Assembly: GCF_964213995.1 (NCBI RefSeq)
Contig: NC_135808.1
Span: 22,940,001-23,004,000, forward strand
Reading direction: 5' to 3'
DNA: 64,000 bases
From: Mustelus asterias
Taxonomy: Eukaryota
Every line of letters begins with the position of its first letter. Positions within the stretch are counted from its first letter, which is position 1. The position numbers were made by a program, and so were the translations under genes. Of the stretch, positions 2,395 to 57,966 are shown piece after piece. The notes under the pieces are model-generated. The model was not told the origin of the DNA, searched no databases, and worked only from the letters and a program-made list of their open reading frames with translations.

Positions 2395-2771
2395 CGACTC
2401 TCAGTAATTTTTGTCCGTACTCCAGATATTTCCTCAGCCACTCGATACACTCCACCTCCAGGTAACGTTTCCATCGCTGGTTAATGACCGTGCTGCCCTC
2501 CCACTTTTGTTTGATGATCTCTCCCCAAGGGACGGGGGTCACCCACACCAGAAGATCCTTATCAAAACTGATGAAATCTAGTCCGTCCCACCCGTACTGG
2601 TTGAATCCAGTCGTATTCCCATCATCACTCAGGTCACAGCCGGTCATCAGCTGGTGTATGTGGATCCCGGTGGATTAGAAAGATAACCTGCCAATCAGGG
2701 CCAGTCCCAATAAAAGCTGCACTCACCATGAACCCATCCAAACAGATCCGTTCCCACTGGAGGTCCAGCCA

Positions 2772-2817
<46 letters not shown>
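2772..2817. repeat. (CA)n microsatellite
   Basis: Seen directly. Confidence 0.95.
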
Positions 2818-3026: not shown

Positions 3027-4641
3027 AAAGAACAAAGAACAATACAGCACAGGAACAGGCCCTTCGACCCGCCAAGCCCGTGCCGTTCCCTGGTCCAAAC
3101 TAGACCATTATTTTGTATCCCTCCATTCCCACTCCGTTCATATGGCTGTCTAGATAAGTCTTAAACGTTCCCAGTGTGTCCGCCTCCACCACCTTGCCTG
3201 GCAGCGCATTCCAGGCCCCCGCCACCCTCTGTGTAAAATATGTCCTTCTGATATCTGTGTTAAACCTCCCCCCCCGCCTTCACCTTGAACCTATGACCCC
3301 TCGTGAACGTCACCACCGACCTGGGGAAAACCTTCCCACCGTTCACCCTATCTATGCCTTTCATAATTTTATACACCTCTATTAAGTCTCCCCTCATCCT
3401 CCATCTTTCCAGGGAGAACAACCCCAGTTTACCCAATCTCTCCTCATAACTAAGCCCCTCCATACCAGGCAACATCCTGGTAAACCTCCTCTGTACTCTC
3501 TCCAAAGCCCCCACGTCCTTCTGGTAGTGTGGCGACCAGAACTGGACGCAGTATTCCAAATGCGGCCGAACCAACGTTCTATACATCTGCAACATCAGAC
3601 CCCAACTTTTATACTCTATGCCCCATCCTATAAAGGCAAGCATGCCATATGCCTTCTTCACCACCTTCTTCACCTGTGACGTCACCTTCAAGGATCTGTG
3701 GACTTGCACACCCAGGTCCCTCTGCGTATCTACACCCTTTATGGTTCTGCCATTTATTGTATAGCTCCTCCCTACATTATTTCTACCAAAATGCATCTCT
3801 TCGCATTTATCAGGATTGAACTCCATCTGCCATCTCTTTGCCCAAATTTCCAGCCTATCTATATCCTTCTGTAGCTTCTGACAATGCTCCTCACTATCTG
3901 CAAGTCCTGCCAATTTTGTGTCGTCCGCAAACTTACTGATCACCCCAGTTACACCTTCTTCCAGATCGTTTATATGAATCACAAACAGCAGAGGTCCCCA
4001 TACAGAGCCCTGCGGAACACCACTAGTCACAGCCGGAAAAAGACCCTTCCACTACCACCCTCTGTCTTCTGTGACCAAGCCAGTTCTCCACCCATCTAGC
4101 CACCGCCCCCTTTATCCCATGAGATCCCACCTTTTTCACCCGCCTACCATGAGGGACTTTGTCAAACGCTTTACCAAAGTCCATATAGACCACATCCACG
4201 GCCCTTCCCTCGTCAACCATTCTGGTCACTTCTTCCAAAAACTCCACCAGGTTAGTGAGGCATGACCTCCCTCTCACAAAACCATGCTGACTATCGTTAA
4301 TGAGTTTATTCCTTTCTAAATGCGCATACATCCTATCTCTAAGAATCTTCTCCAACAACTTCCCCACCACGGACGTCAAGCTCACCGGCCTATAATTATC
4401 CGGGTTATCCTTCCTACCCTTCTTAAATAATGGGACCACATTAGCTATCCTCCAATCCTCTGGGACCTCACCTGCGTCCAGTGACGAGACAAAGATTTGC
4501 GTCAGAGGCCCAGCGATTTCATCTCTTGTCTCCCTGAGCAGCCATGGATAGATTCCATCAGGCCCTGGGGATTTGTCAGTCTTTATATTCTCTAACAAAC
4601 CTAACACTTTCTCCCTTGTAATGGAGATTTTCTCCAACGGT
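3027..4641 (-). mobile_element. Young 5'-truncated CR1 LINE inserted in the locus A intron-2 donor
   Basis: RT ORFs 4023-4748 and 3260-4030 (GVPQGS, FADD), (TTCTTTG)2 tail, GTGA target duplication. Confidence 0.93.
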
Positions 4642-4962
4642 TCACCTCCTGACTGGTTGGTTGGTTCGATACATGAGGGTCTGAATATTATCTTTGAGAC
4701 ATCGTGCCCCCTCCTGTGTGAGCTTCTTCTTCTGTTCCCAGGACTCAAGCCCCTCGCTCTCCACCATCCACTGCTCCCGGGGGATCAGCTCCCTCCGATC
4801 GCTGTCGTACACAACAAACGGGACACCATCCACATAACCGACAGCCACAAACTCCGGGAAACCTGGAATTGGAGTCATTCCCGTGAGGAAACACCGGAGA
4901 GAGTGAGACACTGAAATATAGAGAGAGAGAATTCAGGATAGACACCCTAAAAACACCAACAC

Positions 4963-5371: not shown

Positions 5372-5556
5372 CTGCAGACACCTCTCCACACAGAAGGACC
5401 AGCTCTATCAGTCCAATCATTGCTGCTTCCCTCATGTTGAGAGAAACATTTGGAGGAAACTCTTTTTCAAAGAAAGGCCATTTTCTCAACTCACTCCTTC
5501 TGTCTTTTCCTGTTTACACTGAGCCTCAATCTGATTGGACCCGAAATAGGACTGGA

Positions 5557-9180: not shown

Positions 9181-9325
9181 CTGAGGTTAATATCTAACCC
9201 CGGCACTCCCTGCTCACACCCCATCATCGATCGAAATCACTGCACACAGAGGGACCAGCACATTCCGTTCAAAAATTGTTGCTTCCTTCACCAGGTTGGG
9301 ACGGGAAATCTATGGAAAAACTTTT
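9181..9325 (-). pseudogene. Degenerate relic of an MHC class I leader exon plus one intron-1 repeat unit
   Basis: cacacagagggaccagc...attgttgcttcc...gttggga matches the leader of locus B (30160-30215); the ATG and donor are lost. Confidence 0.55.
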
Positions 9326-13500: not shown

Positions 13501-13909
13501 TTTTCATAAGATCGTCCTCCAGTGACTGTGCAGAATAAACAGCTCAGATCAGAATAGCTTAGAAAGTGCAGCTCCAGAAAAAGCAATTACTTCCTAACCA
13601 TCATCACAGTTCCATTTAAACAGAATCACAAATGTGGAGCTTGAATCAGTCGGTCGCTGTCACCTTGATGAAATCACATCTTCCCTCATTCTCTCATCCT
13701 CTCCTGCTGCTGTTCTTGGGAACTGGTGTTCCTGGATTACAAACCCTGGAATGCACTGGAGGGCACTGGGGATGAGAAAGAAAAACTGAGGCAAAGCCAG
13801 CAGAGCTGGAACACACCCAACAAAACCCATCAGACCTCCACAAAAAACAGCAGCAAAATCCATCAGACCCCTCACGCCTAATAATGCAGAAACCTGGAAG
13901 AGATACAGA

Positions 13910-15540
13910 GAGAGGAATACTGGGAAAGGAGAGGGGGCACGACAAAATACTGGCAAGAAAAATCAAGGAACCTCCAAGGATGTTCTTTAAGTACCTGAAG
14001 AGAAAAGGATAAGGAAAGAGTAAGGCCTGGTGGAGACCAATAAGATAGTCTGTGAGAGAGGAGGGAGAATGTGTTGAGGTTGTGAATAAATATATTGCCA
14101 CTGTCTTTGGGAAACAGGGAGCAATGCTGATATTACACTTAAAGAAGAAGTGTGTGAATTACTGCATCAGATAAACACTGTAAGAGATGATGTATTCAGG
14201 GATTTTATAACTTTGAAAGATGGTAAATCACCGGGTTAAAAGAAGCAAAGGAGGGAATTGCAGAGGCTCTGATCATCAGAATCATTCCTCCCGGGCTACA
14301 GGAGTGTGGAAGAAGATTAAATGACTGCCAACATTACACCATGGATTGAAAAGAGAAGGGGCAATCTGAGTAATTATACACCAGTTAGTGTAACTTCGGC
14401 AGTGGGAACATTGTTGGAACCAATTATGGGGAACTGTACAAACCTTCATTTAGAAAGGCACAGATTAGTCGAGGAAAGTTAGCGTGGATTTAAGGGGAGC
14501 TCATCTCAAGCTTTCTGACTGAAAATTTGGAAGAGGTGAGAAGGAGGGTTGATGAGGGCAGTGAGGTGGACATGGTCAACATGCATTTTAATCATGCTTT
14601 GGACAAGGTCCCACATGGCAGGCTGGTCAGAAATGTAAAACTCATCGAGATCCAAGAGATATTGACAAATCAGACCCCAAATTAGCTCAGTGGCAGGAAG
14701 CAAAGGGTTAAGGGGTTGATTGCGACTAGAATGATGTCCATGATGTGGAGATGCCGGTGTTGGACTGACCATCACTCATCTGACGAAGGAGCAGTTCTCC
14801 GAAAGCTCGTGATTCCGAATTGGATTTTACCCTGATGTTGAGAGACTTCTCAGACCTAAACAAGACTTCTTGTTACCAGTGGGGGTTCCACAGGACCCAG
14901 CACTCACGCCTCACTTTTTGTAGTTCATGTGAATCATTTAGATTCAAATGCAGCAGGAATGATAAAGAAGTTGACAGAGGTACAAATATTATCTGTGTTG
15001 GTTTTTAGTGAAGAGGAAAGCTTCAGACTGCAGGAAGATAGAGATGGTCTGGGCAGTTGGGAAGAACATTGGAAAATGGAATTCAGTCCGGAGCAGTGAG
15101 AGGTGATGGATTTCGGGAGGATGAACAAGGCAAAGGGAATCCCCAATAACTGGGAGGATAATGAGTAATGTGGAGGAACAGAGGGATCCAGGAGTGCGTG
15201 TCCACAGATTGGGAAAGTTTTCAGGACAGGTTAATTACATGGTAAAGAAGGTACATAACATGCTTTTCTTTCATCAGTTGAGACAGACAGCAGAATGGTT
15301 TTGCTAGAATTGTAACAACACCAGACAGACGACAGCTGAAGCACTGTCTGAAAGGATGGTAGACGCAGAAACTCTCACCACATTGAATCAATTCTTGGAC
15401 GTCGAGTTGAAGAGCTGTGATCGACAGAGCTACAGATCAAGGACATGAGGTGAGATTAAGCAGGAGAGTTCTTCATGAACAGGAAGGGATATGATGGGCT
15501 GAATGGCCTCGCTCTCAATCATAAATATTCTATCCTTCAA
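13910..15540 (+). mobile_element. Old degenerate CR1 (paralog at 60350-61930, minus)
   Basis: Same family as 1-1230; interrupted by a Penelope-derived end. Confidence 0.75.
14776..14812 (+). ncRNA. Minimal type I hammerhead-ribozyme motif in a Penelope-derived fragment
   Basis: UCAU-CUGACGA-A-GGAG(CAGUU)CUCC-GAAA-GC-UC-GUGA. Confidence 0.6.
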
Positions 15541-15636
15541 CATTCCAACCACACACCAGCAGCAAATCCCATCAGACCTCCAAACACCAGCTAAACCCAG
15601 CAGACCCCAAACACTAGCAAAACCCATCAGACCAAG

Positions 15637-20637: not shown

Positions 20638-20997
20638 TCAGGTACTTGTGGAGGGTCTGGGTGAGGAATCCCCATCATCAGAAGCTGTTAAAGGAAGAAG
20701 AGGTGTTAAAACATTGTTCAACATCAGAGAGACAGAGGCAGAGACTGTGGATATGATAAAGAGAGAATGAGAGAGACAAAGACAGACAGACACAGAGGAA
20801 GAGGTTCTCACACACCCATACTAACGGCGACACACAGAAGCCCACACACCCACACAGAAACGCACGATGCACGCACGCGCACACACACACACACACTATA
20901 TTTGAAACAGAATGAACAATAATGTACACAGTGGCACAGGGACAATGTTTGATGATCAGCTTACTATTTGCAGGATTGTAGTCACTCTTCCCTCTCC
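20638..20997 (-). CDS. Locus B cytoplasmic exons 6 (20965-20997) and 7 (20638-20684)
   Basis: GRGKSDYNPAN + TSDDGDSSPRPSTST*. Confidence 0.85.
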
Positions 20998-23900
20998 CTG
21001 TAAAACATGGAATGCTCAGTGAGTGACGAGACTGAGAGAAAATCAGAGACAGAGGCTGGAACTCTCGCTCGTACTGAGCCCCGACAACACAATTCTGAAC
21101 CCTCACTCCCACCACGACCCGAGACCCTCACTCCCACCCTGACACAAGACCCTCACTCCCACTCTGACCCTGGACCCTCACTCCCATCCTGTCCCTAGAC
21201 CCTCACTCTTAGCTGAGCCCTCACTGATACCCTGAACTCCACATCCAATTTGAGACCCTTCCCACAATGCTGACACTCCCCCTTCATCATGAGCTCCTAA
21301 CTGTCCCTGTCCCCACCCTGCAGCTCTTCCACCCACCCACCACCCCCCCTCCCCACCCCCACACCAACCTGCGACCCACAGCCTGAGCCACCGCCACCCT
21401 GGAATACTCTCCCGGAATCCCTGCCCCCAGTGAGCTGTCATCCGGTGGATCTGACATCCATCATTATGAAATGATTCGAAAGGCTAGTCATGGCACGAAT
21501 CAATTCCAGCCTCCCGGACTGCCTGGATCCACTACAGTTCACCCACCGCTCTTTTCCCTCCAATTCCTACCTTTCTTGTTGTAGATGACGACAGCCACAA
21601 TGATGAGAGTGATGAGCACGAGGACCCCAACCACAATCCCGACAGTAACAGCAACCTGGGAGCGAGACTTTGGTTCTGTTAGAGAGAGAGAATCAGAGAG
21701 ACTGAGTGAATCAGGGAGAGGGATAAGTGTACATCAGAGGGAGACAGAGTGGGAGAGAATAGGAGACAGTGGGAGAGATAGGAAGAGAAGAGTGGAAGAG
21801 AATACGAGAGTGATGGAGAGAGAATGAATCGGAGAGAAAGAAAGAAATCAGAGAGCGAGAGAGAGAATTAGGAAACACAGGATATACGACACAGAAAACA
21901 ACCTTTCAGCCCATCCAGCTGATGCTGGTGTTAATGTTCCACCTGAACCTCTTCCCGTCTTTCCACATCTAATTCCACCATCTTAACTACCTATTCCCTT
22001 CTCTCTCAGTGACCTGTCTATCTTCCCCTTAAACTATACTGTTCAGTTCAGCCACTCCCTGCGGCAGCGAGCCCCACATTCTCATCACTCTTTGGGTGAA
22101 GAGGTTTCTCATCACTCTTTGGGTGAAGAGGTTTCATGAATTCCCCACTGGGTTTCTTGGTGAGTATCTTGTATTGATGACCTCTTGTTACGATCTTCCC
22201 ACAAGAGGAGACATTATCTCTGTATCCTGTCGATGAAAACCTTTCAGAATTTTACATCCTCGATTAGGTCAACCCTCAGCCTTCTGTTTTCCCGAGAGCA
22301 GAGACCCAGCCGGTCAATCCTTTCCTGAGATGTCCACCCACTCATTTCTGGAATCATCTCTGTAAATCTTCTCCACACTCTCTCCCCTGACTCTATATCC
22401 TTTGTGTGAAATGGTGACTGGAACTGCACACAATCTCTAAATGTGGTCTAACCAATTTTGATAAAGGTTTAGCAATAACTTACAATTGTACAAATTGTAA
22501 TTACTCATGTACAATTCTATCGCTCGAGAAATGAAACCTGGTTTTCTGTTTGTTTTGTTTATGGCCTTGTCTAACCTGTTACTGATTGGTGTATTTATCC
22601 ACCCAGATCCCTTTGTTCCTCAATCCCATCCAGACTGACACCTTCCTCGTAATAAGTGACCTCCTTATCCATCCTTAACAGAAAACTACCTCACGTTTAT
22701 CTGTGCTGAACTCCAGACACCAATTATTTGCCCATTCTACAATTTTATTAATGTCCTACGAATTACCTGCAGTTCTCCTCAATATCAAATAATTCCCCCA
22801 ATTTGGTGCCATCTGCAAATTAAGAAATGGTATTTTTGATTCCAATATCCAAGTTATGGAGTGTAAGTTGTGAACAGCGATGATCCCAGCACTGATCCTT
22901 GTGGGACACCATTTCCCACCTTCCGTCACTCTGAATAACTCCCTTTACTCACACTCTCTGCTTTCTGTCTCAAAGTCAGTGAGTGATCCATTCTGTCACT
23001 TATCCCTAACTCCACATTCTCTGACCTTATCCATTCGTCTATCACCAGTCACCTTATCGATTTCATTTGAAAAATCATATTAAATTACATCCATTACATT
23101 ACCATTGACTCCTCCCTCTGTTACATCCTCACAAAATTCACAAAGTGGAGTAAAATAAGATTTTCCATTTCAAAATCCATGCTGATGATTCATTGTTATG
23201 TTATTTGATTTCTAGATTTTCATGAATTCTCTCCAATAGAAGGAGTTCCATTATTTTTCTGAAACTCTGATTTAATCTGACTGAACTAAACTTCCAGGAT
23301 GCACTGGGCTTTGTTGTACTGTAATATCCCAGGATGCACCGGGCACTGTTGTACTGTAATAATGATGTGGAGCTGCCGGTGTTGGACTGGGGTAAGCACA
23401 GTAAGAAGTCTCACAACACCAGGTTAAAGTCCAACAGGTAGCAGAAGCCACAAGCTTTCGGAGCACTGCCCCTTCATCAGGTGAGTGGGAGTTCTGTTCA
23501 CAAACAGGGCATATAAAGACACAAACTCAATTTACAAAATAATGGTTGGAATGCAAGTCTTTACAGCTAATCAAGTCTTAAAGGTACAGACAATGTGAGT
23601 GGAGAGAGGGTTAAGCACAGGTTAAAGAGATGTGTATTGTCTCCAGCCAGGACAGTTAGTGAGATTTTGCAAGCCCAGGCAAGTCGTGGGGGTCACAGAT
23701 AGTGTGACATGAACCCAAAATCCTGGTTGAGGCTGTCCCCATATGTGAGGAACTTGGCTATCAGTTTTTGCTCAGCGATTCTGCGTTGTCATGTGTTGTG
23801 AAGGCCGCCTTGGAGAACGCTTACTCGAAGATCAGAGGCTGAATGCCCGTGACTGCTGAAGTGTTCCCCAACAGGAAGAGAACACTCCTGCCTGGTGATT

Positions 23901-26900
23901 CTCGAGCGGTGTTCATTTATCCGTTATCGTAGCGTCTGCATGGTCTCCCCAATGTACCATGTCTCGAGACATCCTTTCCTGCAATGTATCAGGTAGACAA
24001 CGTTGGCCGAGTTGCAAGTGTATGTACCATGTACCTGGTGGATGATGTTCTCACGTGAGATGATGGCATCCGTGTTGATGATCCGGCACATCTTGCAGAG
24101 GTTGCTGTGGCAGGGTTGTGTGGTGTCGTGGTCACTGTTCTCCTGAAGGCTGGGTAGTTTGCTGCAGACAATGGTCTGTTTGAGGTTGTGCAGTTGTTTG
24201 AAGGCAACTGAGCACACCCTGTGTATACGGAGGGCCTGTCTGTAGGGGATGGCTTCTTTAACGTGTTTAGGGTGGAAGCTGGGGAAGTGGAGCATCGTGA
24301 GGTTATCCGTGGGCTTGCGGTACAGTGAAGTGCTGAGGTGACCGTCCTTGATGGAGATGCGTGTGTCCAAGAGTGCAAGCAATTCTGGATAGTCCATGGT
24401 GAGTCTGATGGTGGGATAGAACTTGTTGATGACATCATATCATTGTTTCAGTGACTGTTCGCCATGAATCCAAAGGAAGAAAATGTCATCGATGTATTTA
24501 GTGTATAGCGTTGGTTGAAGGTCCTGAGCATCCCACGATGCTCCACTTCTCCAGCTTCCACCCTAAACACGTTAAAGCAGCCATCCCCTACGGACAAGCC
24601 CTCCGTATTCACAGGATCTGCTCAGATGAGGAGGATCGCAACAGACACCTCCAGACGCTGAAAGATGCCCTCATAAGGACAGGATATGGCGCTCGACTAA
24701 TTGATCGACAGTTCCGATGCGCCACAGCGAAAAACCGCACCGACCTCCTCAGAAGACAAACATGGGACACGGCGGACAAAGTACCCTTCGTCGTCCAGTA
24801 CTTCCCCGGAGTGGAGAAGCTACGACATCTTCTCCGGAGCCTTCAACATGTCATCGATGAAGACGAACATCTTGCCAAGGCCATTCCCACACCCCCACTT
24901 CTTGCCTTCAAACAACCGCACAACCTCAAACAGACCATTGTCCGCATCAAACTACCCAGCCTTCAGGAGAACAGTGACCACGACACCACACAACCCTGCC
25001 ACAGCCACTCTGCAAGACGCGGATGCTATCATCTCACGTGAGAACACCATCCACCAGGTACACGGTACATACACTTTCAACTCGGCCAACGTTGTCTACC
25101 TGATACGTTGCAGGAAAGGATGTCCCGAGGCATGGTACATTGGGGAAACCATGCAGACACTACGACAACAGATGAATGAACACCGCTCGACAATCACCAG
25201 GCAAGACTGTTCTCTTCCTGTTGGGGAAGACTTCAGCAGTCACGGGCATTCTGCCTCTGATATTCGGGTAAGCGTTCTCCAAGGCGGCCTTCACGACACA
25301 CGACAACGCAGAATTGCTGAGCAGAGACTGATCGCCAAGTTCCGCACACATGAGGACGGCCTCAACCGGGATCTTGGGTTCGTGTCACACTATCTGTGAG
25401 CCCCACGACTTGCCTGGGCTTGCAAAATCTCATTAACTGTCCTGGCTGGAGACAATACACATCCCTTTAACCTGTGCTTAACGCTCTCTCCACTCACATT
25501 GTCTGTACCTTTAAGACTTGATTACCTGTAAAGACTCGCATTCCAACCATTATTTTGTAAATTGAGTTTGTGTCTTTATATGCCCTGTTTGTGAACAGAA
25601 CTCCCACTCACCTGGCGAAGGAGCAGTGCTCTGAAAGCTAGTGGCTTCTGCTACCAAATAAACCTGTTGGACTTTAACCTGGTGTTGTGAGACTTCTTAC
25701 TGTGTTTACCCCAGTCCAACACCGGCATCTCCACATCATGACTACCGTAATATCCCATGATACACTGTATTATGTCATACTGAGAAATCCCAGGTTACTC
25801 TGGGCCTTGTCATTCTGTAGTTTCCCAGGACTCAATGGGGCATGTTTCATATCAAATCCTCGACGTACAATTAATTTGCACTAATGGCCATTGTATATTA
25901 TGCATGGAAAATTAATATTTATTTCCCTCTCTCTGTATCTGGGCTGACAGCTCAGCACTGACCCTCCCCTCCTGTGATCCTGGTCTGAGGCTGGGTCCTC
26001 TCTAACAGTGAGAAACAGTCTTACCGTAAATCACCACCAGTGTCTCCTTCATCCCGCTGTGTTCCACCCGACAGGAATACTCGGCCTGGTCCTCTGGATC
26101 AAACTCGACCCATTTCCGGATCTGGTAGGTGCTGTCGGGATTGGGTAAGATCCCAGTGGACAGAGTCTCATCAATCACCACTCCGTCTCTCCACAGATTC
26201 ACCTCGATGGCTTGAGGGTAAAACCCGGTGACGGCACAGGACAGCCGGTTAGAATCACCCAGACGGGTAAAGGACACGACGGGGGCAACTGAGAGAGAAA
26301 GAAAGAGGAGTCAGTACAGGAACTTCGAGATAGAGAGTCCCGGCATCACCCCCTTCACCGACTCTCACTCCCCCCCTCACTCACCGACTCTCACTCCCCC
26401 CTCACTCACCGACTCTCACTCCCCCTCTCACTCACCGACTCTCACTCCCCCCTCACTCACCGACTCTCACTCCCCCCTCACTCACCGACTCTCACTCCCC
26501 CCTCACTCACCGACTCTCACTCCCCCGTCACTCACCGACTCTCACTCCCCCGTCACTCACCGACTCTCACTCCCCCCTCGCTCACCGACTCTCACTCCCC
26601 CCTCACTCACCGACTCTCACTCCCCCCTCACTCACCGACTCTCACTCCCCCCTCACTCACCGACTCTCACTCCCCGACTCCCACCTCACTCACCGACTCC
26701 CACTCCCCCCTCACTCACCGACTCTCACTCCCCCCCCACTCAGCGACTCTCACTCCCCCCTCACTCACCGACTCTCCCTCCCCCTCACTCACCGACTCTC
26801 ACTCCCCCTCATTCACCGACTCTCACTCCCCCCTCACTCACCGACTCTCACTCCCCCCTCACTCACCCCTCACTCACCAACTCTCCCTCCCCCTCACTCA

Positions 26901-29900
26901 CCGACTCTCACTCCCTCCTCACTCACCGACTCTCAGAAGTTTTTGTCCATATTTCAGATATTTCCTCAGCCATTCGATACACTCCCCCTCCAGGTAATGT
27001 TTAAATCGCCTTTTGACGATGACATCCTGATCCCAGATGTTTTTGATGCTCTCCCCCCAGGGGACCGGAGTCACCCACACCATGTGATCCTTGTCGAAGC
27101 TGATAAAATCTTGTCCATTCCACGCGTACTGGTTGAATCCACTTGTGGTCCCATCATCGCTCAGTTCACAGCCAGTCATCATCTGGAAGACATGGATCCC
27201 TGTGGATCAGAAACACAAACAGCCAATCAGTGCCAGTCCCAATGGGAGATCCCACCTCCACAGCCAATCATAGCCAGTCCCACTGATTGGCCCCACCCTC
27301 TGTAGAAACAGCGAATCAAATCCAGTTACACTGAGAGGCGCTTCCCACTACATAGTAGACTGCCAATCAGAGCCAGTTACACAGAGCGGGCCCATGTCCG
27401 ACATGCACATCCAATCAGAGCCAGTCTCACTTGGACATAATCCCTCCACACACACAGCCAATCACATTTACTGTCACATCTCCAATCGCAGCCAATCAGC
27501 CTCTGGCTCCCAGCTCCTGATCCACTCTGGGTTTCTCTTCATTACAAGCTGGATTTCTCTTCATTACAAGCTGGACCCCAAGAGCCAGGTCTGACAAAGT
27601 GTCATCCAGACCTGAAATGTTAGCTCTGTTCTCTCTCCACAGATGCTGTCAGACCTGCTGAGGTTTTCCAGCATTTTCTGTTTTGGATTCAGATTCCAGC
27701 ATCCGCAGTATTCTGCTTTTATATATGGGGCAGAGTGAGGACTCACCTCCTGTCTGGTTGGTCCGGGACATGAGGGTCGGAATACTAGTTTTGAAATGCA
27801 TCTCCCCCTCCCGTACGAGCATCATCTTCTGCTCCCAAAACTCAGACCCATCGCCCTCCACCATCCACCGCTCCGGGTGAATCACCTCCTTCCGATCACT
27901 GTCATATGTCACAAACTGGATATCGTCCACATAACCGACAACCACAAACTCCGGGAAACCCGGGATTGGAGTCATTCCCGTGAGGAAATACCGGAGAGAG
28001 TGAGAGCCTGAAATATAGAGAAAGAGAGAGACATCAGGGTGTGAACCCCAAAACACCAACACCCAGAGAGAGAGACATCAGGGTGTGAACCCCAACATAC
28101 CAACACCCAGAGAGTGAGAGACATCAGGGTGTGAACCCCAAAACACCAACACCCAGAGAGAGAGAGAGAGAGACATCAGGGTGTGAACACCAAAACACCA
28201 ACACCCAGAGAGAGAGAGACATCAGGGTGTGAACCCCAACATACCAACACCCAGAGAGTGAGAGACATCAGGGTGTGAACCCAAAACACCAACACCCAGA
28301 GAGAGAGAGACATCAGGGTGTGAACGCCAACATACCAACACCCAGAGAGTGAGAGACATCAGGGTGTGAACCCCAAAACCCAACACCCAGAGAGAGAGAG
28401 AGAGACATCAGGGTGTGAACCCCAAAACACCAACACCCAGAGAGAGAGAGAGAGACATCAGGGTGTGAACACCAGAACCAGAGCGTTGTGCCCCATTGAC
28501 CTGGTAAAATCCACCTCACTGATATTTGTGTCAAAATTGGAGAACTCTTCAACAATCTGGTGAAACAACAGTCTGACAGAGTTATACTCACTGTGACACA
28601 CGATGTGAAAGGTCGCAACCACCCTCCCCATCCCTGGTTATGGCCTATCTCACTGGCAGGGTGAACTCGAGGGGTGACCAGTCTCATTGGCAGGGTGAAC
28701 CCGGGGATGACCTGTCTCAGTGGCAGGCTGTTTCCAGGGATGACCTGTCTCACTGGCAGCGTGTATCCGGGAATGATCTGTCTCACTGGCAGGGTGGATC
28801 TGGGTGTGACCTGTCTCACTGACATGGTGTTTCCGGGGATGACCTGTCGAAGTGGCAGGGTGTACCCGGGGATGACCTGTCTCACTGGCAGGGTGGATCT
28901 GGGTGTGAGCTGTCTCACTGGCAGGGTGTATCCGGGGATGACCTGTCTCACTGGCAGGGTGGATCTGGGTATGACCTGTCTCACTGGCAGGGTGGACCCA
29001 CCAGACGCTTTGGCACAGTAATCTTCACTGGGAATGGCGTTCCCCTTAGAAACGTTTCTGGACCCGATGAGGTCTCAGGTATTCAGTCAAACTTCGGCAG
29101 CAAAACCTCTATTTGATTGTTACCGAAAATCCTCCCCCAGCTGAGGAATCAGTATCTCTCCATGTTCAACACTCCTTGGAAAAAACACTAAGGGAGATGA
29201 GGACTCAGACTCTACTCTGGGTGGGGCTTGAATGTCCTTCCCTCAGAGTGACTCAGGAATATAACTGCAGACTGAGCAGTCCGAGTCCGGAATGATACAT
29301 CTGTGACTTAGCCTGTGGCCTTTCCTGTGAAAATAAGGAGTGTGATGCCTCTGTAGTTGTCGCAGGCTCCTCGATTAGTCTTCTCTGCAGCATATTGTCT
29401 GTAAACAGTGTGATGGAACTCAGTCTATTTTCCAGCAGAGGGAGCTGCTCATAAAGGTGTGGGAATTGATGGCTCTTTTCCTGCTGGGATTCCATTCTTG
29501 CCAAGAGCCTTTCCGTTCACTAAGCAGCCTAACCAGCCTTCTCAAGCTCAAGTGGTGAAATCAAGTGAACACTATTCCTTGAGCTGTCAACAAAAGTGAG
29601 GTTAGCACTGCTGCCTCACAGCGCCAGGGACCCAGTTTCAATTCTGGCCTTGGGTGACTGTCCCTGTGGAGTTTGCACATTCTCTCCGTGGGTGTGGTTA
29701 AGATATTCTGTCAGAGGGTTGGTGGAGACTCAATGGGTTCCTTCTGCACTGTCGGGATTCTCTGATTCTTCCTCTAACTCATTCACCACAGGAGAATATC
29801 TAGGGGGTGGACTGGGAGATGGACTGGGGGCAACTTTGGTGAGGGCAGAGACATGAACCTTCTTGATCCTTCCTGCACAGCTCACAGGTTGCTATTGTCA

Positions 29901-30208
29901 CAGGAAGTTTAGATTTCTTGATGCATGTGGTGTATTCCTCCAAACCCTCCCTCTCTCGGTCTCTCTCTTAACTCTCCAGCCTCATGTCCCTGCCCTTATT
30001 TCCCTCACAATCTACAATTTTGCTCCTTCTACAGACCCAGTACCCAGTCAGATATTGTTCCTCTCACACCCCATCACTCACTGACCCAGGGTTAATGCCC
30101 CAGTACCCAGCCTGACATTGCCCCTCTCACACCACATCGCTCACCTGTAGACACCTCTCCACACAGAAGGACCAGCTCTATCAGTCCAATCATTGTTGCT
30201 TCCCTCAT
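20638..30208 (-). CDS. MHC class I heavy chain, nonclassical-like (locus B), 7 exons, 348 aa
   Basis: Exons 30145-30208, 27747-28007, 26927-27199, 26025-26288, 21571-21675, 20965-20997, 20638-20684. All junctions are phase-1 GT-AG with no internal stop. Motifs: GSHSLRYF, RTNQT sequon, alpha2 Cys pair, C1-set Ig alpha3. Confidence 0.92.
21440..21550 (+). mobile_element. Rex1/Babar-like RT fragment in intron 5 of B (paralog at 57052-57160 in D)
   Basis: Translates to IMK*FERLVMARINSSLPDCLDPLQF; absent from locus C. Confidence 0.65.
21571..21675 (-). CDS. Locus B exon 5, transmembrane
   Basis: EPKSRSQVAVTVGIVVGVLVLITLIIVAVVIYNKK, AG/GT bounded. Confidence 0.88.
21870..23270 (-). mobile_element. 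Old CR1 in intron 4, shared by B, C (37740-39045) and D (55365-56640)
   Basis: Degenerate RT remnants (QHG, PQGSVLG, FADD-like). Confidence 0.75.
23363..25739. mobile_element. Penelope-like element: two partial copies in inverted orientation in intron 4 of B
   Basis: RT thumb (YRKPT, HP..K.AIPYGQALR), Cys-rich linker, GIY-YIG endonuclease (VVYLIRC...WYIGET), inverted termini. Confidence 0.9.
23448..23484 (-). ncRNA. Minimal hammerhead-ribozyme motif with intact core
   Basis: UCAC-CUGAUGA-A-GGGGC(AGU)GCUCC-GAAA-GC-UU-GUGG. Confidence 0.62.
26025..26288 (-). CDS. Locus B exon 4, alpha3 Ig C1 domain
   Basis: LSCAVTGFYP...W...YSCRVEH, 264 nt. Confidence 0.93.
26352..26926. repeat. 25-bp intron-3 minisatellite, locus B
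   Basis: About 23 units, G-rich on the sense strand. Confidence 0.95.
26927..27199 (-). CDS. Locus B exon 3, alpha2 domain
   Basis: GIHVFQMMTGCEL...YLEGECIEWLRKYL...RV, 273 nt. Confidence 0.93.
27588..27722 (+). mobile_element. Short interspersed element in intron 2 of B, possibly Penelope-related, with a decayed hammerhead-like head
   Basis: ctgacaaagtgtcatccagacctgaaatgtt; related fragment at about 32002-32026; absent from the paralogous introns. Confidence 0.5.
27747..28007 (-). CDS. Locus B exon 2, alpha1 domain
   Basis: TTTCAG|GSHSLRYFLTGMTPIPGFPEF...MSRTNQTG|GTGAGT, 261 nt. Confidence 0.93.
28022..28472. repeat. ~46-bp minisatellite next to the exon-2 acceptor of B
   Basis: 10 copies of ACATCAGGGTGTGAAC with (AG)n spacers. 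Confidence 0.93.
28645..29000. repeat. 33-bp minisatellite in intron 1 of B
   Basis: GACCTGTCTCACTGGCAGGGTG units. Confidence 0.9.
30145..30208 (-). CDS. Locus B exon 1, leader peptide
   Basis: MREATMIGLIELVLLCGEVST then CAG|GTGAGC; the second in-frame ATG at 30193 may be the true start. Confidence 0.8.
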
Positions 30209-30315: not shown

Positions 30316-30361
30316 CCAATCAGAATAAAGAGATTCAGTGAGTCATCAGTCTCCGGCAGAA
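30316..30361 (-). promoter_or_regulatory. X-Y promoter module, locus B (S-like box altered)
   Basis: TGACTCA at 30339-30345 and CTGATTGG at 30316-30323 on the minus strand. Confidence 0.65.
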
Positions 30362-32744: not shown

Positions 32745-32805
32745 TCAGCTTTGTGTCTATTCTGCCGGAGACTAATGACTCACACAATGTTTTTATTCTG
32801 ATTGG
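32745..32805 (+). promoter_or_regulatory. SXY-like promoter module, locus C
   Basis: TGACTCA 32776-32782 and CTGATTGG 32798-32805, conserved although the flanks diverge from the paralogs. Confidence 0.7.
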
Positions 32806-32919: not shown

Positions 32920-32983
32920 ATGAGGGAAGCAGCAATGATTGGACTGATAGAGCTGGTCCTTCTGTGTGGAGAGGTGTCTGCAG
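32920..32983 (+). CDS. Locus C exon 1, leader peptide
   Basis: MREAAMIGLIELVLLCGEVSA then CAG|GTGAGT. Confidence 0.8.
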
Positions 32984-51823: not shown

Positions 51824-51886
51824 CAACCTGTTTGTGTCTATTCTGCCGGAGACTGATGACTCACTGAATCTCTTTATTCTGATTGG
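51824..51886 (+). promoter_or_regulatory. SXY-like promoter module, locus D
   Basis: CAACCT 51824-51829, TGACTCA 51857-51863, CTGATTGG 51879-51886; additional CCAAT boxes on each side. Confidence 0.7.
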
Positions 51887-52009: not shown

Positions 52010-52073
52010 ATGAGGGAAGCAGCAATGATTGGACTGATAGAGCTGGTCCTTCTGTGTGGAGAGGTGTCTGCAG
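52010..52073 (+). CDS. Locus D exon 1, leader peptide
   Basis: MREAAMIGLIELVLLCGEVSA then CAG|GTGAGT. Confidence 0.8.
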
Positions 52074-52416
52074 GTGAGTGATGGGGTGTGAGAGGGGCAA
52101 TGCCAGGCTGGGTACTGGGGCATTAACCCTGGGTCAGTGAGTGATGGGGTGTGAGAGGGGCAAAGCCAGGCTGGGTACTGGGGCATTAACCCTGGGTCAG
52201 TGAGTGATGGGGTGTGAGAGGGGCAATGCCAGGCTGGGTACTGGGGCATTAACCCTGGGTCAGTGAGTGATGGGGTGTGAGAGGGGCAATGCCAGGCTGG
52301 GTACTGGGGCATTAACCCTGGGTCACTGAGTGATGGGGTGTGAGAGGGGCAATGTCAGGCTGGGTGGAGGCCTTGCTCTCGGTTTGGAATCAGTGTTTTG
52401 GGGTTCATGCCCTGAT

Positions 52417-52452
<36 letters not shown>

Positions 52453-55400
52453 GTGTTGGTGTTTTTAGGGTGTCTATCCTGAATTCTCTCTCTCTCTATT
52501 CCAGGCTCTCACTCTCTCCGGTATTTCTTCACGGGAATGACTCCGATCCCGGGTTTCCCGGAGTTTGTGGCTGTCGGTTCTGTGGACGGTGTCCAGTTTG
52601 TTTTGTACGACAGCGATCGGAGGGAGCTGATCCCCCGGGAGCAGTGGATGGTGGAGAGCGAGGGTCGGGCAGCCTGGGAGCGGAAGAAGGATCTCGCACA
52701 GGAGCAGGAGATGTACTCCAAACTTACTGTTCCACTGCTCATGACCCGCACCAACCAGACAGGAGGTGAGTGCTCACTCTCCCAGCACCCTGGATCCAGG
52801 TGGGAATGAGGAGAAACCCAGAGTGGATCAGGAACCGGGAGCCAGAGGCTGATTGGCTGCGATTGGAGATGTGACAAGAAATGTGATTGGCTGTGAATGT
52901 GTGGAGGGATTGTTTCCAGGGAGGTCTGGCTCTGATTGGCTGTGTGTGAGGGGGGGGGGGGGGGGCAGAGTACTTGATGTTGATTGGCTGGTAGGATGAG
53001 ATCGTCCAGTGAGACTAGTTCTGAGTGGCTGTGCAGGTGGGATCGCCCATTGGGACTGTCTCTGATTGGCTGTTTGTGTTTCTGATCCTTAGGGATCCAT
53101 GTTTACCAGCTGATGACTGGCTGTGACCTGAGGGATGATGGGACCACGAGTGGATTCAACCAAAGGGGATGGGACGGAGATGATTTTATCAGCTTCGACA
53201 AGGATCACATGATGTGGGTGACCCCGGTGCCCTGGGGAGAGATCACCAAAAACAAGTTGGACAGGAGCACAGTCGACATTCAGCGATGGAAACATTACCT
53301 GGAGGTGGAGTGTATCGAGTGGCTGAGGAAATACCTGGAGTACGGACAGAAAGAATTGAGAGTCTGTGAGTGAGGGGGGAGTGAGAGTTGGTGAGTGAGG
53401 GGGGGGAGTGAGAGTCGGTGAGTGAGGGGTGAGTGAAAGTCGGTGAGTGAGGGGGGGAGTGAGAGGCGGTGAGTGAGGGGGGAGTGAGAGTCGGTGAGTG
53501 AGGGGGGAGTGAGAGTCGGTGAGGGAGGGAGGGAGCGAGAGTCGGTGAGTGAGGGGGGAGTGAGAGTCGGTGAGTGAGGGGAGTGAGAGTCGGTGAGTGA
53601 GGGGGGAGTGAGAGTCAGTGAGTGAGGGGGGAGTGAGAGTCGGTGAGTGAGGGGGGAGTGAGAGTCGGTGAGTGAGGGGGGAGTGAGAGTCGGTGAGTGA
53701 GGGGGGAGTGAGAGTCGGTGAGTGAGAGGGGAGTGAGAGTCGGTGAGTGAGGGGGGAGTGAGAGTCGGTGAGTGAGGGGGGAGTGAGAGTCGGTGAGTGA
53801 GGGGGGAGTGAGAGTCGGTGAGTGAGGGGGGAGTGAGAGTCGGGGAGTGAGAGTCGGTGAGTGAGGGGGGAGTGAGAGTCGGTGAGTGAGGGGGGAGTGA
53901 GAGTCGGTGAGTGAGGGGGGGTGAGAGTCGGTGAGTGAGGGGGGAGTGAGAGTCGGTGAGTGAGGGAGGAGTGAGAGTCGGGGAGTGAGAGTCGGTGAGT
54001 GAGGGGGGAGTGAGAGTCGGTGAGTGAGGGGGGAGTGAGAGTCGGTGAGTGAGGGGAGTGAGAGTCGGTGAGTGAGGGGGGAGTGAGAGTCGGTGAGTGA
54101 GGGGGGGTGAGAGTCGGTGAGTGAGGGGGGAGTGAGAGTCGGTGAGTGAGGGGGGAGTGAGAGTCGGTGAGTGAGGGGGGAGTGAGAGTCGGTGAGTGAG
54201 GGGGGAGTGAGAGTCGGTGAGTGAGAGTCGGTGAGTGAGAGTCGGTGAGTGAGGGGGGAGTGAGAGTCGGTGAGTGAGGGGAGTGAGAGTCGGTGAGTGA
54301 GGGGGGAGTGAGAGTCGGTGAGTGGGGGGGGGTGAGAGTCGGTGAGTGAGGGGGGAGTGAGAGTCGGTGAGTGAGGGGGAGTGAGAGTCGGTGAAGGGGG
54401 TGATGCCGGGACTCTTATCTCGAGGTTCCTGTACTGACTCCTCTTTCTTTCTCTCTCAGTTGCCCCCGTCGTGTCCTTTACCCGTCTGGGTGATTCTAAC
54501 CGGCTGTCCTGTGCCGTCACCGGGTTTTACCCTCAAGCCATCGAGGTGAATGTGTGGAGAAACGGAGTGATGATTGATGAGACTCTGTCCAGTGGGATCT
54601 TACCCAATCACGACAGCTCCTACCAGATCCGGAAATGGGTCGAGTTTGATCCAGAGGACCAGGCCGAGTATTCCTGTCGGGTGGAACACAGCGGGATGAA
54701 GGAGACACTGGTGGTGATTTACGGTAAGACTGTTTCTCACTGTTAGAGAGGACCCAGCCTCAGACCAGGATCACAGGAGGGAGGGTCAGTGCTGAGCTGT
54801 CAACCCAGGATATATAGAGAGGGAAATAAATCTTATTCAATGCGTTATATATCATGGTTCCACAGTGCAACGTGATACAGCGTATCATTGGATATTGGGA
54901 TCGCACTGGACCTGGTGTAACATTGGACACAAGAGTAGGTCTGGGCCTGGTGTATTCTGGGATATTACAGTATGGTGGGGCCCAGTGAACCCTGGGATAT
55001 TGCAGTAGTACAGACCGTGGTATATCCTGAGATACTCTCGTAGGACACATCCCAGTGAACCCTGGGATATTGCAGTGGTACAGACCGTGGTGTATCCTGA
55101 GATATTCTCGTAGGACAAAAACCAGTGTATCCTGGGATGTTGCAGTGTGTCAGGGTCTGGTGTATCCTGGGATATTACAGGAGGTTGGGCACCGTGGAAT
55201 ATCAGAGGATGGAGAGAGCCTGGTGTATCCAAGAAACAATGCTTTTCACTGTGTACCAATACATGTGACAATAATAAATCACATCAAATATTACAGTAGG
55301 ACTGGACCCAGTGCATCCTGGAAGTTTGCTTCAGTCAGATTAAGATCAGTATTCAGAGAAATAATGGAATTCCTTCTATTGGAGACAATTCATGAAAATC

Positions 55401-57966
55401 TAGAATCAAATACTATAACAATGAATATTCAGCATGGATTTTGAAATGGAAAATCTTGTTTTACTCCAATTAGTGGATTTTTTGAGGATGTAACAAAGGG
55501 AATAGACAATGGTAATGTAATAGATATAATATCATATAATTTTTTTAATGTAATAGAAAAGGGGGTTCGTGATGGACTGATTGACAAGGTGAAAGCATGT
55601 GGAGTTAGGGGATGAGTGACAGAATGGATCACTCACTGACTTTGGGACAGAAAACAGAGAGTGTGAGTAAAGGGTGTTTCAGAGTTACAGAAAGTGTTCC
55701 ACAAGGATCAGTGCTGGGATCACCGCTGTTCACAAGTTACACTCCATAACTTGGATATTGGAATCAAAAATACCATTTCTTAATTTGCAGATAACATCAA
55801 ATTGGGAGAATTATTTGATTTTGAGGAGAACTGGAATAAATTAATAGGACATGAATAAACTTGAACAAATAGTTGGTAAATAAAGTTCAGCACAGTTAAA
55901 CGTGAGGTATTTTTCAGTTAACGATGAATAGGGAGGGTTGAGGAACAAAGGGATCTTGATGTACAAATACACCAATCAGTAAACATAGAGTTACAGGTTA
56001 GACAATAAACAAAATACAATCGAAAACCAGGTTTGATTTCTCCAGGGATAGAATTGTAAAGTAGTGACTTTATTGCTAAACCTGTATCAAACCTTGGTTA
56101 GACCACATTTAAAGACCGTGTGCAGTTCCGGTCACCATTTCATAAAAAGGATATAGAGTCAGGGGAGAGAGTGTAGAGAAGATTTACAGAGATGATTCCA
56201 GAAATGAGTGGGTGGACATCTCAGGAAAGGATTGACCGGCTGGGTCTCTGCTCTCGGGAAAACAGAAGGCTGAGGGTTGACCGAATCGAGGATTTAAAAT
56301 TAGGAAAGTTTTTTTTATAGGCCAGACACATCGAGAGTGTTCCTCTTGTGGGAAGAGCATATCCAGTGGCCATCAATACAAGAAACCCAATGGGGAATTC
56401 ATGAGAAACCTCTTCACCCAAAGAGTGATGAGAATGTGGAGCTCGCTGCCACAGGGGGTGGCTGAACTGAACAGTATAGTTTAAGGGGAGGATAGACAAG
56501 CAAATGAGGGAAAGGGGAATAGAGTTAAAATGGTTGAATTAGATGAGGAATGATGGGAGAAGGCTCAAGTGGAACATAAATACCAGTATCAACTAGATGG
56601 GCCGGAAGGCCATTTTCTATGTTGTATATCCTGTGTTTCCTGATTCACTCTCACTCTGATTCTCTCTCACATTTCTCTTTCTTTCACTCTGATTCACTCT
56701 TTCATTCTGTCTCTCTGATCTTTCTCTGTCTCTCATTCTCTCTCTTCCTCACTCTTAGTTGCTCATCCTCTCTCTCATTCTCTCCCACTCGCTCACATTC
56801 TATTTCTCTCTGAGTCTCACTGTTCCCTCTCCCTGATTCACTCAGTCTCTCACATTCTGTCTCTCTGATTCTCACTTTTTTCTCTCCCTGACTCACTCAG
56901 TCTCTCTGATTCTCTCTCTCTAACAGAACCAAAGTCTCGCTCCCAGGTTGCTGTTACTGTCGGGATTGTGGTCGGGGTCCTCGTGCTCATCGCTCTCATC
57001 ATTGTGGCTGTCGTCATCTACAACAAGAAAGGTAGGAATTGGAGGGAAAAGAGCGGTGGGTGAACTGTAGTGGATCCAGGCAGTCCGGGAGGCTGGAATT
57101 GATTCGTGCCATGACTAGCTTTTCGAATCATTTCATAACGATGGATGTCAGAGCCACCGGATGACAGCTCACTGGGGGCAGGGATTCTGGGAGAGTATTC
57201 CAGGGTGGCGGTGGCTCAGGCTGTGGATCTCAGATTGGTGTGGGGGCGGGGATGGGGGGCTGGTGGTTGTACAGAGTGGGTGGAAGAGCTGCAGGTTTGG
57301 GATAGGGATGGTAAGGGGCTCATGATAAAGGATGAGTGTCTGAGAATTGTGGGAAGGGCCTCAAATTGGGTGAGGAGTTCAGGGTATCAGTGAGGGCTCA
57401 GCTAAGAGTGAGGGTCTAGGGACAGGACGGGAGTGATGGTCCAGGGTCAGGGTGGGAGTGAGGGTCTTGTGTCAGGATGGGAGTGAGGGTCTCTGGTTGT
57501 GGTGGGAGTGAGGGTTCAGAATTGTGTTGTTGGGGCTCAGTGCGAGTGAGAGTTCCAGCCTCTGTCTCTGATTTTCTCTCAGTCTCGTCACTCACTGAGC
57601 ATTCCATGTTTTACAGGGAGAGGGAAGAGCAACTACAATCCTGCAAATAGTAAGCTGATCATCAAACATTGTCCCTGTGCAACTGTGTACATCATTGTTC
57701 ATTCTGTTTCAACGTTAGTTTGTGTGTGTGTGTGTGCGTGCATCGTGCGTTTCTGTGTGGGTGTGTGGGCTTCTGTGTGTCGCCGTTAGTATGGGTGTGT
57801 GAGAACCTCTTTCTCTGTGTCTCTCTGTCTCTCTCATTCTCTCTTTATCATATTCACAGTCTCTGCCTCTGTCTCTCTGATGTTGAACAATGTTTTAACA
57901 CCTCTTCTTCCTTTAACAGCTTCTGATGATGGGGATTCCTCATCCAGATCCTCCACAAGTACCTGA
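52010..57966 (+). CDS. MHC class I heavy chain, nonclassical-like (locus D), 7 exons, 348 aa
   Basis: Exons 52010-52073, 52505-52765, 53093-53365, 54460-54723, 56927-57031, 57617-57649, 57920-57966. Phase-1 GT-AG junctions, open frame. Confidence 0.93.
52074..52365. repeat. 63-bp intron-1 minisatellite, locus D
   Basis: About 4.6 copies, starting at the donor. Confidence 0.93.
52505..52765 (+). CDS. Locus D exon 2, alpha1 domain
   Basis: GSHSLRYFFTGMTPIPGFPEF...MTRTNQTG, 261 nt. Confidence 0.93.
53093..53365 (+). CDS. Locus D exon 3, alpha2 domain
   Basis: GIHVYQLMTGCDL...YLEVECIEWLRKYL, 273 nt. Confidence 0.93.
53366..54395. repeat. 25-bp intron-3 minisatellite, locus D
   Basis: About 40 units of GTGAGTGAGGGGGGAGTGAGAGTCG. 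Confidence 0.95.
54460..54723 (+). CDS. Locus D exon 4, alpha3 domain
   Basis: C1-set Ig motifs, 264 nt. Confidence 0.93.
56927..57031 (+). CDS. Locus D exon 5, transmembrane
   Basis: Hydrophobic span followed by YNKK, AG/GT bounded. Confidence 0.88.
57617..57966 (+). CDS. Locus D cytoplasmic exons 6 (57617-57649) and 7 (57920-57966)
   Basis: GRGKSNYNPAN + TSDDGDSSSRSSTST*. Confidence 0.85.

What the first reader, a model, noticed from the sequence alone, without database searches (positions are those of the whole stretch)
2395..57966. Expanding cluster of divergent, nonclassical-type MHC class I genes
Seen: three intact genes and one pseudogene with identical exon architecture. Known: classical class I conserves Y7, Y59, R84 (non-mammals), T143, K146, W147, Y159 and Y171. 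Here Y59 is lost in all four (A: ESW, B: EFW, C: ESW, D: AAW) and the usual E63 is K. The 143/146/147 triad differs per copy (A I/K/W, B I/I/W, C I/N/L, D T/K/L). R84, the N86 sequon, Y159, W167 and Y171 are kept. No TAP or PSMB gene lies in the window. Inference: a multicopy nonclassical family, each member with a differently remodelled groove end. It may be a known shark lineage (e.g. UCA/UEA) or an undescribed one; the lineage cannot be assigned by eye.
Basis: partly seen in the sequence, partly recalled or inferred. Interest (0 to 1): 0.8.

Follow-up and report, generated by a model that had tools for sequence, protein, structure and literature searches.

The report
Shark UBA nonclassical MHC gene cluster
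These are three working copies and one broken copy of an already described shark family of non-classical immune display genes (MHC class I, UBA lineage), so the finding is real but ordinary, apart from some useful detail on how the copies diverge.

Summary
Observation confirmed. Genes B, C and D are intact seven-exon class I genes, identical to RefSeq proteins of the shark Mustelus asterias. Gene A is a pseudogene: frameshift, dead splice acceptor, LINE at a donor, and alpha3/TM/tail exons deleted. The residue calls hold, with small corrections for A.

The lineage can be assigned. All four nest with the published nurse-shark UBA reference AAC60347 (alpha1+alpha2 tree, 100/97 support). Forcing them with classical UAA is rejected (p-AU 2e-6). 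A pure multicopy UBA cluster away from TAP/PSMB is already described (PMC10751288).

Added here: loss of Y59 plus K63 is a lineage trait, paired with acidic 163 in 24 of 27 UBA versus 1 of 28 UAA-like proteins; only the 143/146/147 end varies per copy. Groove exons are old (dS 0.27-0.47) while alpha3, leader and TM exons are homogenised (dS 0-0.04). No dN/dS above 1. Ligand is untested; peptides with a non-canonically held N-terminus are my best guess (about 55%).

The parts
5372..5435 (-). Gene A (pseudogene) leader exon
   Evidence: 64/64 identical to the leader exons of C and D
4646..4910 (-). Gene A alpha1 exon, 265 nt: a 4-nt duplication near the 3' end shifts the frame; C at position 7
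3028..4644 (-). LINE fragment starting at A's alpha1 splice donor; 96% identical to the copy at 18050-19675
   Evidence: self-BLAST; RVT_1 hits; donor context
2395..2667 (-). Gene A alpha2 exon; open frame but acceptor reads CG, not AG
1269..2165 (-). Deletion junction of A at about 2148-2165: intron-3 minisatellite runs straight into DNA homologous to the region 276 nt past D's stop codon, so alpha3, TM and both tail exons are gone
   Evidence: blocks 2711-2165 = 53049-53608 and 2148-1269 = 58242-59128
20638..30208 (-). Gene B, intact UBA; exons 30145-30208, 27747-28007, 26927-27199, 26025-26288, 21571-21675, 20965-20997, 20638-20684
   Evidence: identical to P0011 / XP_078073682
32920..40352 (+). 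Gene C, intact UBA; exons 32920-32983, 34886-35146, 35288-35560, 35644-35907, 39523-39627, 40078-40110, 40306-40352
   Evidence: identical to P0003 / XP_078073688; spliced look-alike contigs
52010..57966 (+). Gene D, intact UBA; exons 52010-52073, 52505-52765, 53093-53365, 54460-54723, 56927-57031, 57617-57649, 57920-57966
   Evidence: identical to P0027 / XP_078073675
5557..5595 (-). X-Y-box-like promoter motif upstream of A
   Evidence: 4 matches in the window, one per gene, 0 in 100 shuffles; the box names are recalled
30316..30354 (-). X-Y-box-like promoter motif upstream of B
32767..32805 (+). X-Y-box-like promoter motif upstream of C
51848..51886 (+). X-Y-box-like promoter motif upstream of D
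9215..9290 (-). Decayed leader-exon-like relic, 72.5% identical to C's leader region, no other exons with it
   Evidence: E 2.6e-7

Best explanation
A stretch of the elasmobranch UBA cluster: nonclassical MHC class Ib genes derived from classical UAA, here three intact paralogs and one deletion pseudogene (about 95% for this identity). SHOWN: gene structure, lineage, class I fold, the residue pattern, and a mosaic in which groove exons are old while alpha3/leader/TM exons are nearly identical. INFERRED (evolution, about 80%): birth-and-death duplication of multi-gene blocks, with exon-centred gene conversion keeping the constant parts alike while alpha1/alpha2 escape it, so each subtype keeps its own groove. 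INFERRED (function, about 55%): each heavy chain pairs with beta2-microglobulin and displays peptides or peptide-like ligands to T or NK-like cells. The tyrosine cradle for the ligand's free N-terminus is broken in a fixed way (no Y59; K63, with R62, likely pairs with E163 across that end), while R84 and a copy-specific 143/146/147 set tune the C-terminal pocket, giving each subtype a narrow ligand set.
For: P0017 = AAC60347.1 is labelled Gcirratum_UBA in Supplemental File 10 of PMC10751288 and already has F59, K63, I143, R146. Alpha1+alpha2 tree of 63 rows: all four window genes in starred clades of 24 (97/86) and 27 rows (100/97) with it and with none of the named UAA references. Alpha1 alone: the same 27 rows are one clade, 100/87. 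Window genes forced with 5 UAA rows: lnL 173.7 lower, p-AU 2e-6. Alpha3 identity of B/C/D to nurse-shark UBA 70, 71, 65 of 86 versus 49, 51, 47 of 88 to nurse-shark UAA. PMC10751288 describes a multicopy cluster made only of UBA genes, away from the class Ia region (passage); PMC12562908 says UBA is expanded and derived from UAA (passage). K63 with E/D163 in 24 of 27 UBA rows, 1 of 28 UAA-like rows. dS among B, C, D: alpha1 0.27-0.39, alpha2 0.27-0.47, alpha3 0-0.03, leader 0, TM+tail 0.04 (Fisher p 3e-5 to 9e-8), while the intron-4 block of C and D is 80% alike. C's alpha1 is closer to horn shark (67/87) and catshark (69/87) UBA than to its neighbour B (60/87), but its alpha3 is closer to B (85/88 versus 74 and 78). 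Model: class I fold, mean pLDDT 82.7, best match shark UAA 6LUP, E 1.9e-35. Spliced contigs about 98% like gene C in runs X8 and X9.
Against: Alpha2 alone supports the 27-row UBA set only at 79/93 and its bootstrap had not settled. In the alpha3 tree the set breaks into 3 pieces and the 22-row shark part has 93/78, unstarred. The UBA set was defined after seeing the tree, so group counts are post hoc. No UCA, UEA, UDA or UFA sequence was in the trees (0 of 299 stored proteins matched my motifs); they were excluded by reading the supplement only. No positive selection: dN/dS 0.82 at 57 antigen-recognition codons, bootstrap interval of dN-dS -0.32 to +0.12. Groove hydropathy does not separate peptide from lipid binding. 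The K63-E163 contact is inferred from recalled class I geometry and was not measured on the model. No run is on record as RNA; contigs do not give expression level or tissue.
Confidence: 0.88

Rival explanations
1. An undescribed shark class I lineage, or UCA/UEA.
For: The labelled UCA/UEA/UDA/UFA sequences could not be put in my trees; the supplement has no row labelled UEA (0 hits); the two primary lineage papers were not held.
Against: Direct nesting with the UBA reference. The two UCA-labelled references lack both alpha2 cysteines and the W167 motif, which all window genes keep; the UDA references keep Y59 (nurse shark, skate) and differ throughout alpha3 (read by eye). UGA-like protein: only 20-22 of 87 alpha1 identities. 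That the nurse-shark 'UCA' row stands for UEA is my inference from recall.
Confidence: 0.03
2. Classical or classical-like UAA genes whose alleles tolerate these substitutions.
For: Alpha2 is 56-59 of 91 identical to nurse-shark UAA, about as much as to the UBA reference (58-60 of 91); fold closest to 6LUP; D keeps 6 of 8 anchor residues and the lowest UAA-like row also has 6; promoter motif and spliced look-alikes show an active gene.
Against: AU test rejects the grouping. T143 is in 28 of 28 UAA-like rows but 3 of 27 UBA; Y59 in 25 of 28 versus 0 of 27; 21 of 28 UAA-like rows keep all 8 anchors, no UBA row keeps more than 6. The species has separate UAA-like genes (P0089, P0101) that group with Triakis UAA in alpha2 and alpha3.
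Confidence: 0.02
3. UBA by lineage, but the groove holds lipids or small metabolites (CD1- or MR1-like) or nothing, acting as a stress or NK ligand.
For: Mean hydropathy of 39 groove positions is higher in UBA (0.69, n=27) than UAA-like (0.11, n=28); B reaches 1.07, above the UGA-like mean 0.92 (n=3). Many MR1 structures rank high in the fold search. Some copies elsewhere in the species lose nearly all anchors (P0016).
Against: C and D score 0.47 and 0.23, and nurse-shark UAA itself scores 0.75. Y7, R84, Y159, W167, Y171 are kept in B, C, D. MR1 ranks follow PDB redundancy at 36-38% identity, behind shark, carp and chicken classical structures. The review names UFA and UGA, not UBA, as the lipid binders.
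Confidence: 0.35
4. The groove differences are mostly neutral decay of redundant duplicates, not functional specialisation.
For: dN/dS at groove codons 0.82, not distinguishable from 1; alpha1/alpha2 exons are 80-85% alike, the same as nearby introns; one of four copies is dead and other stored models are broken (P0082, P0143).
Against: Non-groove alpha1/alpha2 codons are under purifying selection (dN/dS 0.30, interval excludes 1); three frames stayed open over dS about 0.35; lineage residues are held across sharks and rays.
Confidence: 0.2

Closest known systems
Elasmobranch MHC class Ib UBA lineage (reference nurse shark AAC60347; PMC10751288, PMC12562908)
   Same: Same clade in alpha1+alpha2 and alpha1 trees; no Y59, K63, mostly I143; alpha3 76-83% identical to the reference; multicopy cluster holding only UBA genes, away from TAP/PSMB.
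   Different: Species-specific subtypes: at least 14 alpha1 and 15 alpha2 types among stored M. asterias models at 93% identity; L147 in C and D; a deletion pseudogene. I found no paper on the cluster in this species.
Shark classical class I UAA (PDB 6LUP; Triakis scyllium alleles)
   Same: Same fold (TM 0.87 on target, 60% identity), alpha2 disulfide, R84, Y159, W167, Y171.
   Different: UAA keeps Y59/T143/K146/W147, is one gene beside tap/psmb (PMC10751288), and has a distinct alpha3 (53-58% identity).
Shark UCA/UEA, UDA, UFA, UGA lineages
   Same: Also MHC-linked class Ib; UEA is also multicopy (PMC10751288).
   Different: UCA-labelled references lack the alpha2 cysteines; UDA, UFA, UGA are single or low copy and far more divergent.
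Xenopus XNC (mhc1-uba) class Ib cluster
   Same: Large oligomorphic class Ib cluster with pseudogenes, derived by duplication (passage).
   Different: Separate origin; the shared name 'uba' is only nomenclature order. Functional data exist for XNC, none seen for shark UBA.

Membership tests
MHC class I heavy chain | Leader, alpha1, alpha2, alpha3 (Ig C1), TM, tail exons; alpha2 disulfide; platform fold | tested here: met
   B, C, D. A has only the first three exons.
MHC class I heavy chain | Binds beta2-microglobulin | not tested
   No shark beta2m sequence was fetched; a textbook pair would pass by likeness to 6LUP anyway.
Elasmobranch UBA (class Ib) | Clade with the reference AAC60347 in the groove domains | tested here: met
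   100/97 (alpha1+alpha2), 100/87 (alpha1), 79/93 (alpha2, weak)
Elasmobranch UBA (class Ib) | Alpha3 of UBA type | tested here: met
   65-71 of 86 identical to the UBA reference versus 47-51 of 88 to UAA; 22-row shark group 93/78, unstarred
Elasmobranch UBA (class Ib) | Partial loss of peptide-terminus anchor residues | tested here: met
A 5, B 5, C 4, D 6 of 8; reference 4 of 8.
Elasmobranch UBA (class Ib) | Multicopy cluster of UBA genes only, away from tap/psmb | tested here: met
   Only class I genes and retroelement ORFs found in the window; many more copies on the same 140.55-Mb contig
Elasmobranch UBA (class Ib) | Cluster flanked by c4 and rxrb | not testable with these tools
   No genome held for this window
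Elasmobranch UBA (class Ib) | Low polymorphism, restricted or low expression | tested here: inconclusive
   C-like contigs differ at 0-4 sites over 189-265 nt in runs of three coded organisms, but close species differ this little anyway and contigs give no expression level
Classical UAA (class Ia) | All eight anchors kept; clade with UAA | tested here: not met
Classical UAA (class Ia) | Single gene tightly linked to tap1/2 and psmb8/9 | tested here: not met
   Four copies, no such gene seen in 64 kb; the published class Ia region spans 87 kb to 1.9 Mb, so absence in 64 kb is weak alone
UCA/UEA | Likeness to UCA-labelled references (no alpha2 cysteines, anchors replaced) | tested here: not met
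   By reading the supplement rows against window residues; not computed; no UEA-labelled row was available
UGA (CD1-like) | Clade with UGA-like proteins | tested here: not met
   Three UGA-like rows are the distant outgroup; the UGA label of P0285 is my match by eye to the supplement

The most novel reading that the evidence does not exclude
UBA is a 'fixed clamp, variable pocket' presentation system: a lineage-wide R62/K63-E163 bridge replaces the Y59 cradle and selects ligands with a blocked (acetylated, formylated, acylated) or overhanging N-terminus, and at least 14 old groove subtypes in this species, carried on one conversion-homogenised alpha3/TM chassis, each present a different such ligand class to a dedicated T-cell subset.
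Probability: 0.2. Interest if true: 0.6.

Novelty: new member of a known kind. Interest (0 to 1): 0.2.

Why it matters
The lineage and this kind of cluster are already in print, and the genes are already annotated as class I-like. The value is incremental. Shark class Ib lineages are described as of unknown function (PMC10751288), and this locus gives three intact UBA subtypes that share a chassis and differ almost only in the groove. That is a clean set for refolding and ligand elution. The K63/E163 pairing is a specific, testable hypothesis for how UBA treats a ligand's N-terminus; I did not see it in the passages read, but the two main lineage papers were not available, so it may be in print.

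Tried and rejected
Whole genome: none held, so no synteny. Primary UDA and UEA papers (PMC7002201, PMC8454915) not held; what I say of UEA beyond the two papers read is recalled. Seeking UCA/UEA/UDA/UFA proteins for the trees: 0 of 299 stored proteins matched the motifs, and a search from a UGA-like protein returned 18 proteins, all close to the query. Positive selection on the groove: not found. Groove hydropathy as a lipid test: inconclusive. No RNA holder listed on record. Earlier scan findings: none. RefSeq models with an extra alpha2 in front (P0002, P0038, P0040; 411 aa) considered as a new four-domain class I form and rejected as unlikely: they start at an internal Met of an A-type alpha2 exon, have no leader, A's acceptor is dead and a stop lies in frame just upstream; not tested with reads, since the one laying call went to gene C. 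That A was merely cut by the window edge: rejected by the deletion junction. A grouping script returned 0 domains through a faulty pattern and was redone. No complex prediction was sent.

Full report
OBSERVATION. A six-frame motif scan and exon mapping found four MHC class I genes. B (minus, 30208-20638), C (plus, 32920-40352) and D (plus, 52010-57966) have seven exons of identical lengths with canonical internal splice sites. They translate without stops to 348-aa proteins identical to P0011, P0003 and P0027, which are RefSeq models named class I histocompatibility antigen-like from the shark Mustelus asterias. Gene A (minus) has a leader, an alpha1 exon with a 4-nt duplication that shifts the frame, a LINE starting at the alpha1 donor, and an alpha2 exon whose acceptor is CG. 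Behind its intron-3 minisatellite the DNA continues as the homologue of the region past D's stop codon, so alpha3, TM and tail exons were deleted. A also has C7 and no sequon in the shifted frame. Of 67 long ORFs, 34 were scanned: 6 were reverse transcriptase fragments and none was TAP- or proteasome-like.

LINEAGE. Among the homologues was P0017, accession AAC60347.1. Supplemental File 10 of Verissimo et al. 2023 (PMC10751288; I saw passages, supplement parts 1, 97, 98 and two supplement searches) labels that accession Gcirratum_UBA. I built trees of 63 rows chosen from about 316 stored proteins, leaving out isoforms, fusions, fragments and near-copies. On alpha1+alpha2 all four window genes fall in starred clades with the UBA reference (24 rows 97/86; 27 rows 100/97) that hold shark and ray sequences but none of the named UAA references. 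Alpha1 alone gives the same 27-row clade at 100/87; alpha2 alone only 79/93. In alpha3 the set splits in three, with 22 shark rows at 93/78 and the three ray rows beside ray UAA-like proteins. Holding the window genes with five UAA rows costs 173.7 log units, p-AU 2e-6. UCA, UEA, UDA and UFA could not be placed in the trees. By reading, the UCA-labelled references lack the alpha2 cysteines and W167 that the window genes keep. The paper's text describes a multicopy cluster made only of UBA genes, away from the class Ia region and flanked by c4 and rxrb; a 2025 review (PMC12562908, passages) says UBA is expanded in sharks and derived from UAA. The window fits that description; the flanks could not be checked. 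UAA-like and UGA-like proteins of the species are listed on a contig of the same length, 140,552,254 nt, which suggests the same chromosome (inference).

GROOVE. With groups defined from the tree, Y59 is in 0 of 27 UBA and 25 of 28 UAA-like rows; K63 in 24 of 27 versus 1 of 28; T143 in 3 of 27 versus 28 of 28. K63 with E/D163 occurs in 24 of 27 versus 1 of 28, and R62 in 22 of 27 UBA rows. The one exception, P0097, has an alpha1 that is sister to UBA. So the N-terminal end is changed once, lineage-wide, and positions 143/146/147 vary by copy. Positions 63 and 163 flank the A pocket (recalled), so a salt bridge is a reasonable inference; I could not measure it on the model. The model of C has a standard class I fold (pLDDT 82.7), best match shark UAA 6LUP. 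Hydropathy of 39 recalled groove positions is 0.58, 1.07, 0.47, 0.23 for A-D, against 0.11 for UAA-like (range -0.83 to 0.86) and 0.92 for UGA-like; this does not decide peptide versus lipid.

EVOLUTION. Among B, C and D, dS is 0.27-0.47 in alpha1 and alpha2 but 0-0.03 in alpha3, 0 in the leader and 0.04 in TM plus tail (Fisher p at most 3e-5). Alpha3 exons are 97-98% alike with 95-98% in the 60 nt on each side, while the long intron-4 blocks are 80-85% alike. C's alpha1 is closer to horn shark and catshark UBA than to B, while its alpha3 is closest to B. This is the pattern of old groove subtypes on a chassis homogenised by exon-centred conversion (inference; the like is recalled from other class I families). 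Groove codons have dN/dS 0.82 against 0.30 for other alpha1/alpha2 codons; there is no signal above 1. In 26 stored M. asterias proteins, 28 UBA alpha2 domains fall into 15 types and 24 UBA alpha1 domains into 14 types at 93% identity, while all 25 UBA alpha3 domains are 90-100% identical to C's; by alpha2, C-type occurs in 5 models, D-type in 4, A-type in 4, B-type in 2 (some models are isoforms or fusions). Blocks of several genes thus seem to have been duplicated recently, unless the assembly holds unmerged haplotypes. Inside the window, 11885-17487 and 58398-64000 are a 93% inverted pair.

ACTIVITY. No listed run is on record as RNA. Laid on 34800-36000, contigs of X8 and X9 leave the introns empty, skip them at GT..AG joints, and have loose ends that match C's leader and TM exons, with 3-4 differences over 189-264 nt of groove exon; X1 and X2 cover the introns. 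This shows spliced C-like transcripts in two other coded organisms, not expression in the window's own animal, nor a level. Each of the four genes has the same X-Y-box-like motif 108-124 nt upstream of ATG, with none in 100 shuffles (box names recalled, and identity by descent explains the repetition).

MECHANISM AND VERDICT. Best reading: UBA class Ib genes that pair with beta2m and show peptide-like ligands with a non-canonically held N-terminus and a subtype-specific C-terminal pocket (about 55%); non-peptide or empty groove about 35%; largely neutral decay of the groove about 20% (not exclusive). Lineage identity is about 95%. Searches for a paper on UBA in this genus or on UBA copy number found nothing further, but the library lacks the main lineage papers, so absence from print is not shown. 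PMC8236899 and PMC6523485 were seen as passages only. New member of a known kind; interest 0.2.

Noticed in passing
window 2395-2667 and beyond the left edge; proteins P0002, P0038, P0040: Three RefSeq models join an A-type alpha2 exon to the next gene, giving leaderless alpha2-alpha1-alpha2-alpha3 proteins of 411 aa; probably read-through or a modelling artefact.
   Followed up: partly
window 35144-35642: One contig of run X8 joins alpha1 directly to alpha3 at GT..AG ends, skipping alpha2.
   Followed up: no
window 35085 (loose end in X8): A loose end resembles the end of A's alpha1 exon, and P0324 is a longer A-type model with alpha3, so A-type genes may be intact elsewhere.
   Followed up: no
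proteins P0094, P0100, P0130 (rays): Ray UBA-like proteins group with shark UBA in alpha1/alpha2 but with ray UAA-like proteins in alpha3 (95/85), hinting at alpha3 exchange between lineages.
   Followed up: no
protein P0097 (Heptranchias perlo): Alpha1 is sister to the UBA clade and it has K63, while alpha2 and alpha3 are UAA-like: a possible intermediate or recombinant.
   Followed up: no
window 9215-9290 (-): Isolated decayed leader-exon-like relic.
   Followed up: partly
window 18050-19675 and 3028-4644: Two 96% identical LINE copies; the first holds a 449-aa open reverse transcriptase frame (18254-19603), suggesting a young family.
   Followed up: no
window 2280-2403, 26355-26935, 53357-54394: A 25-nt minisatellite fills intron 3 of A, B and D (5, 20 and 41 copies) but is absent from C, whose intron 3 is 83 nt; A's deletion begins next to it.
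   Followed up: partly
window 40078-40110 and the matching exons of B and D: The first tail exon keeps a tyrosine motif (YNP) also seen in UAA-like proteins; a role in endosomal traffic is recalled from other class I proteins.
   Followed up: no
protein P0056: A white shark RefSeq protein named beta-2-microglobulin-like is in fact a UBA alpha3-TM-tail fragment.
   Followed up: no
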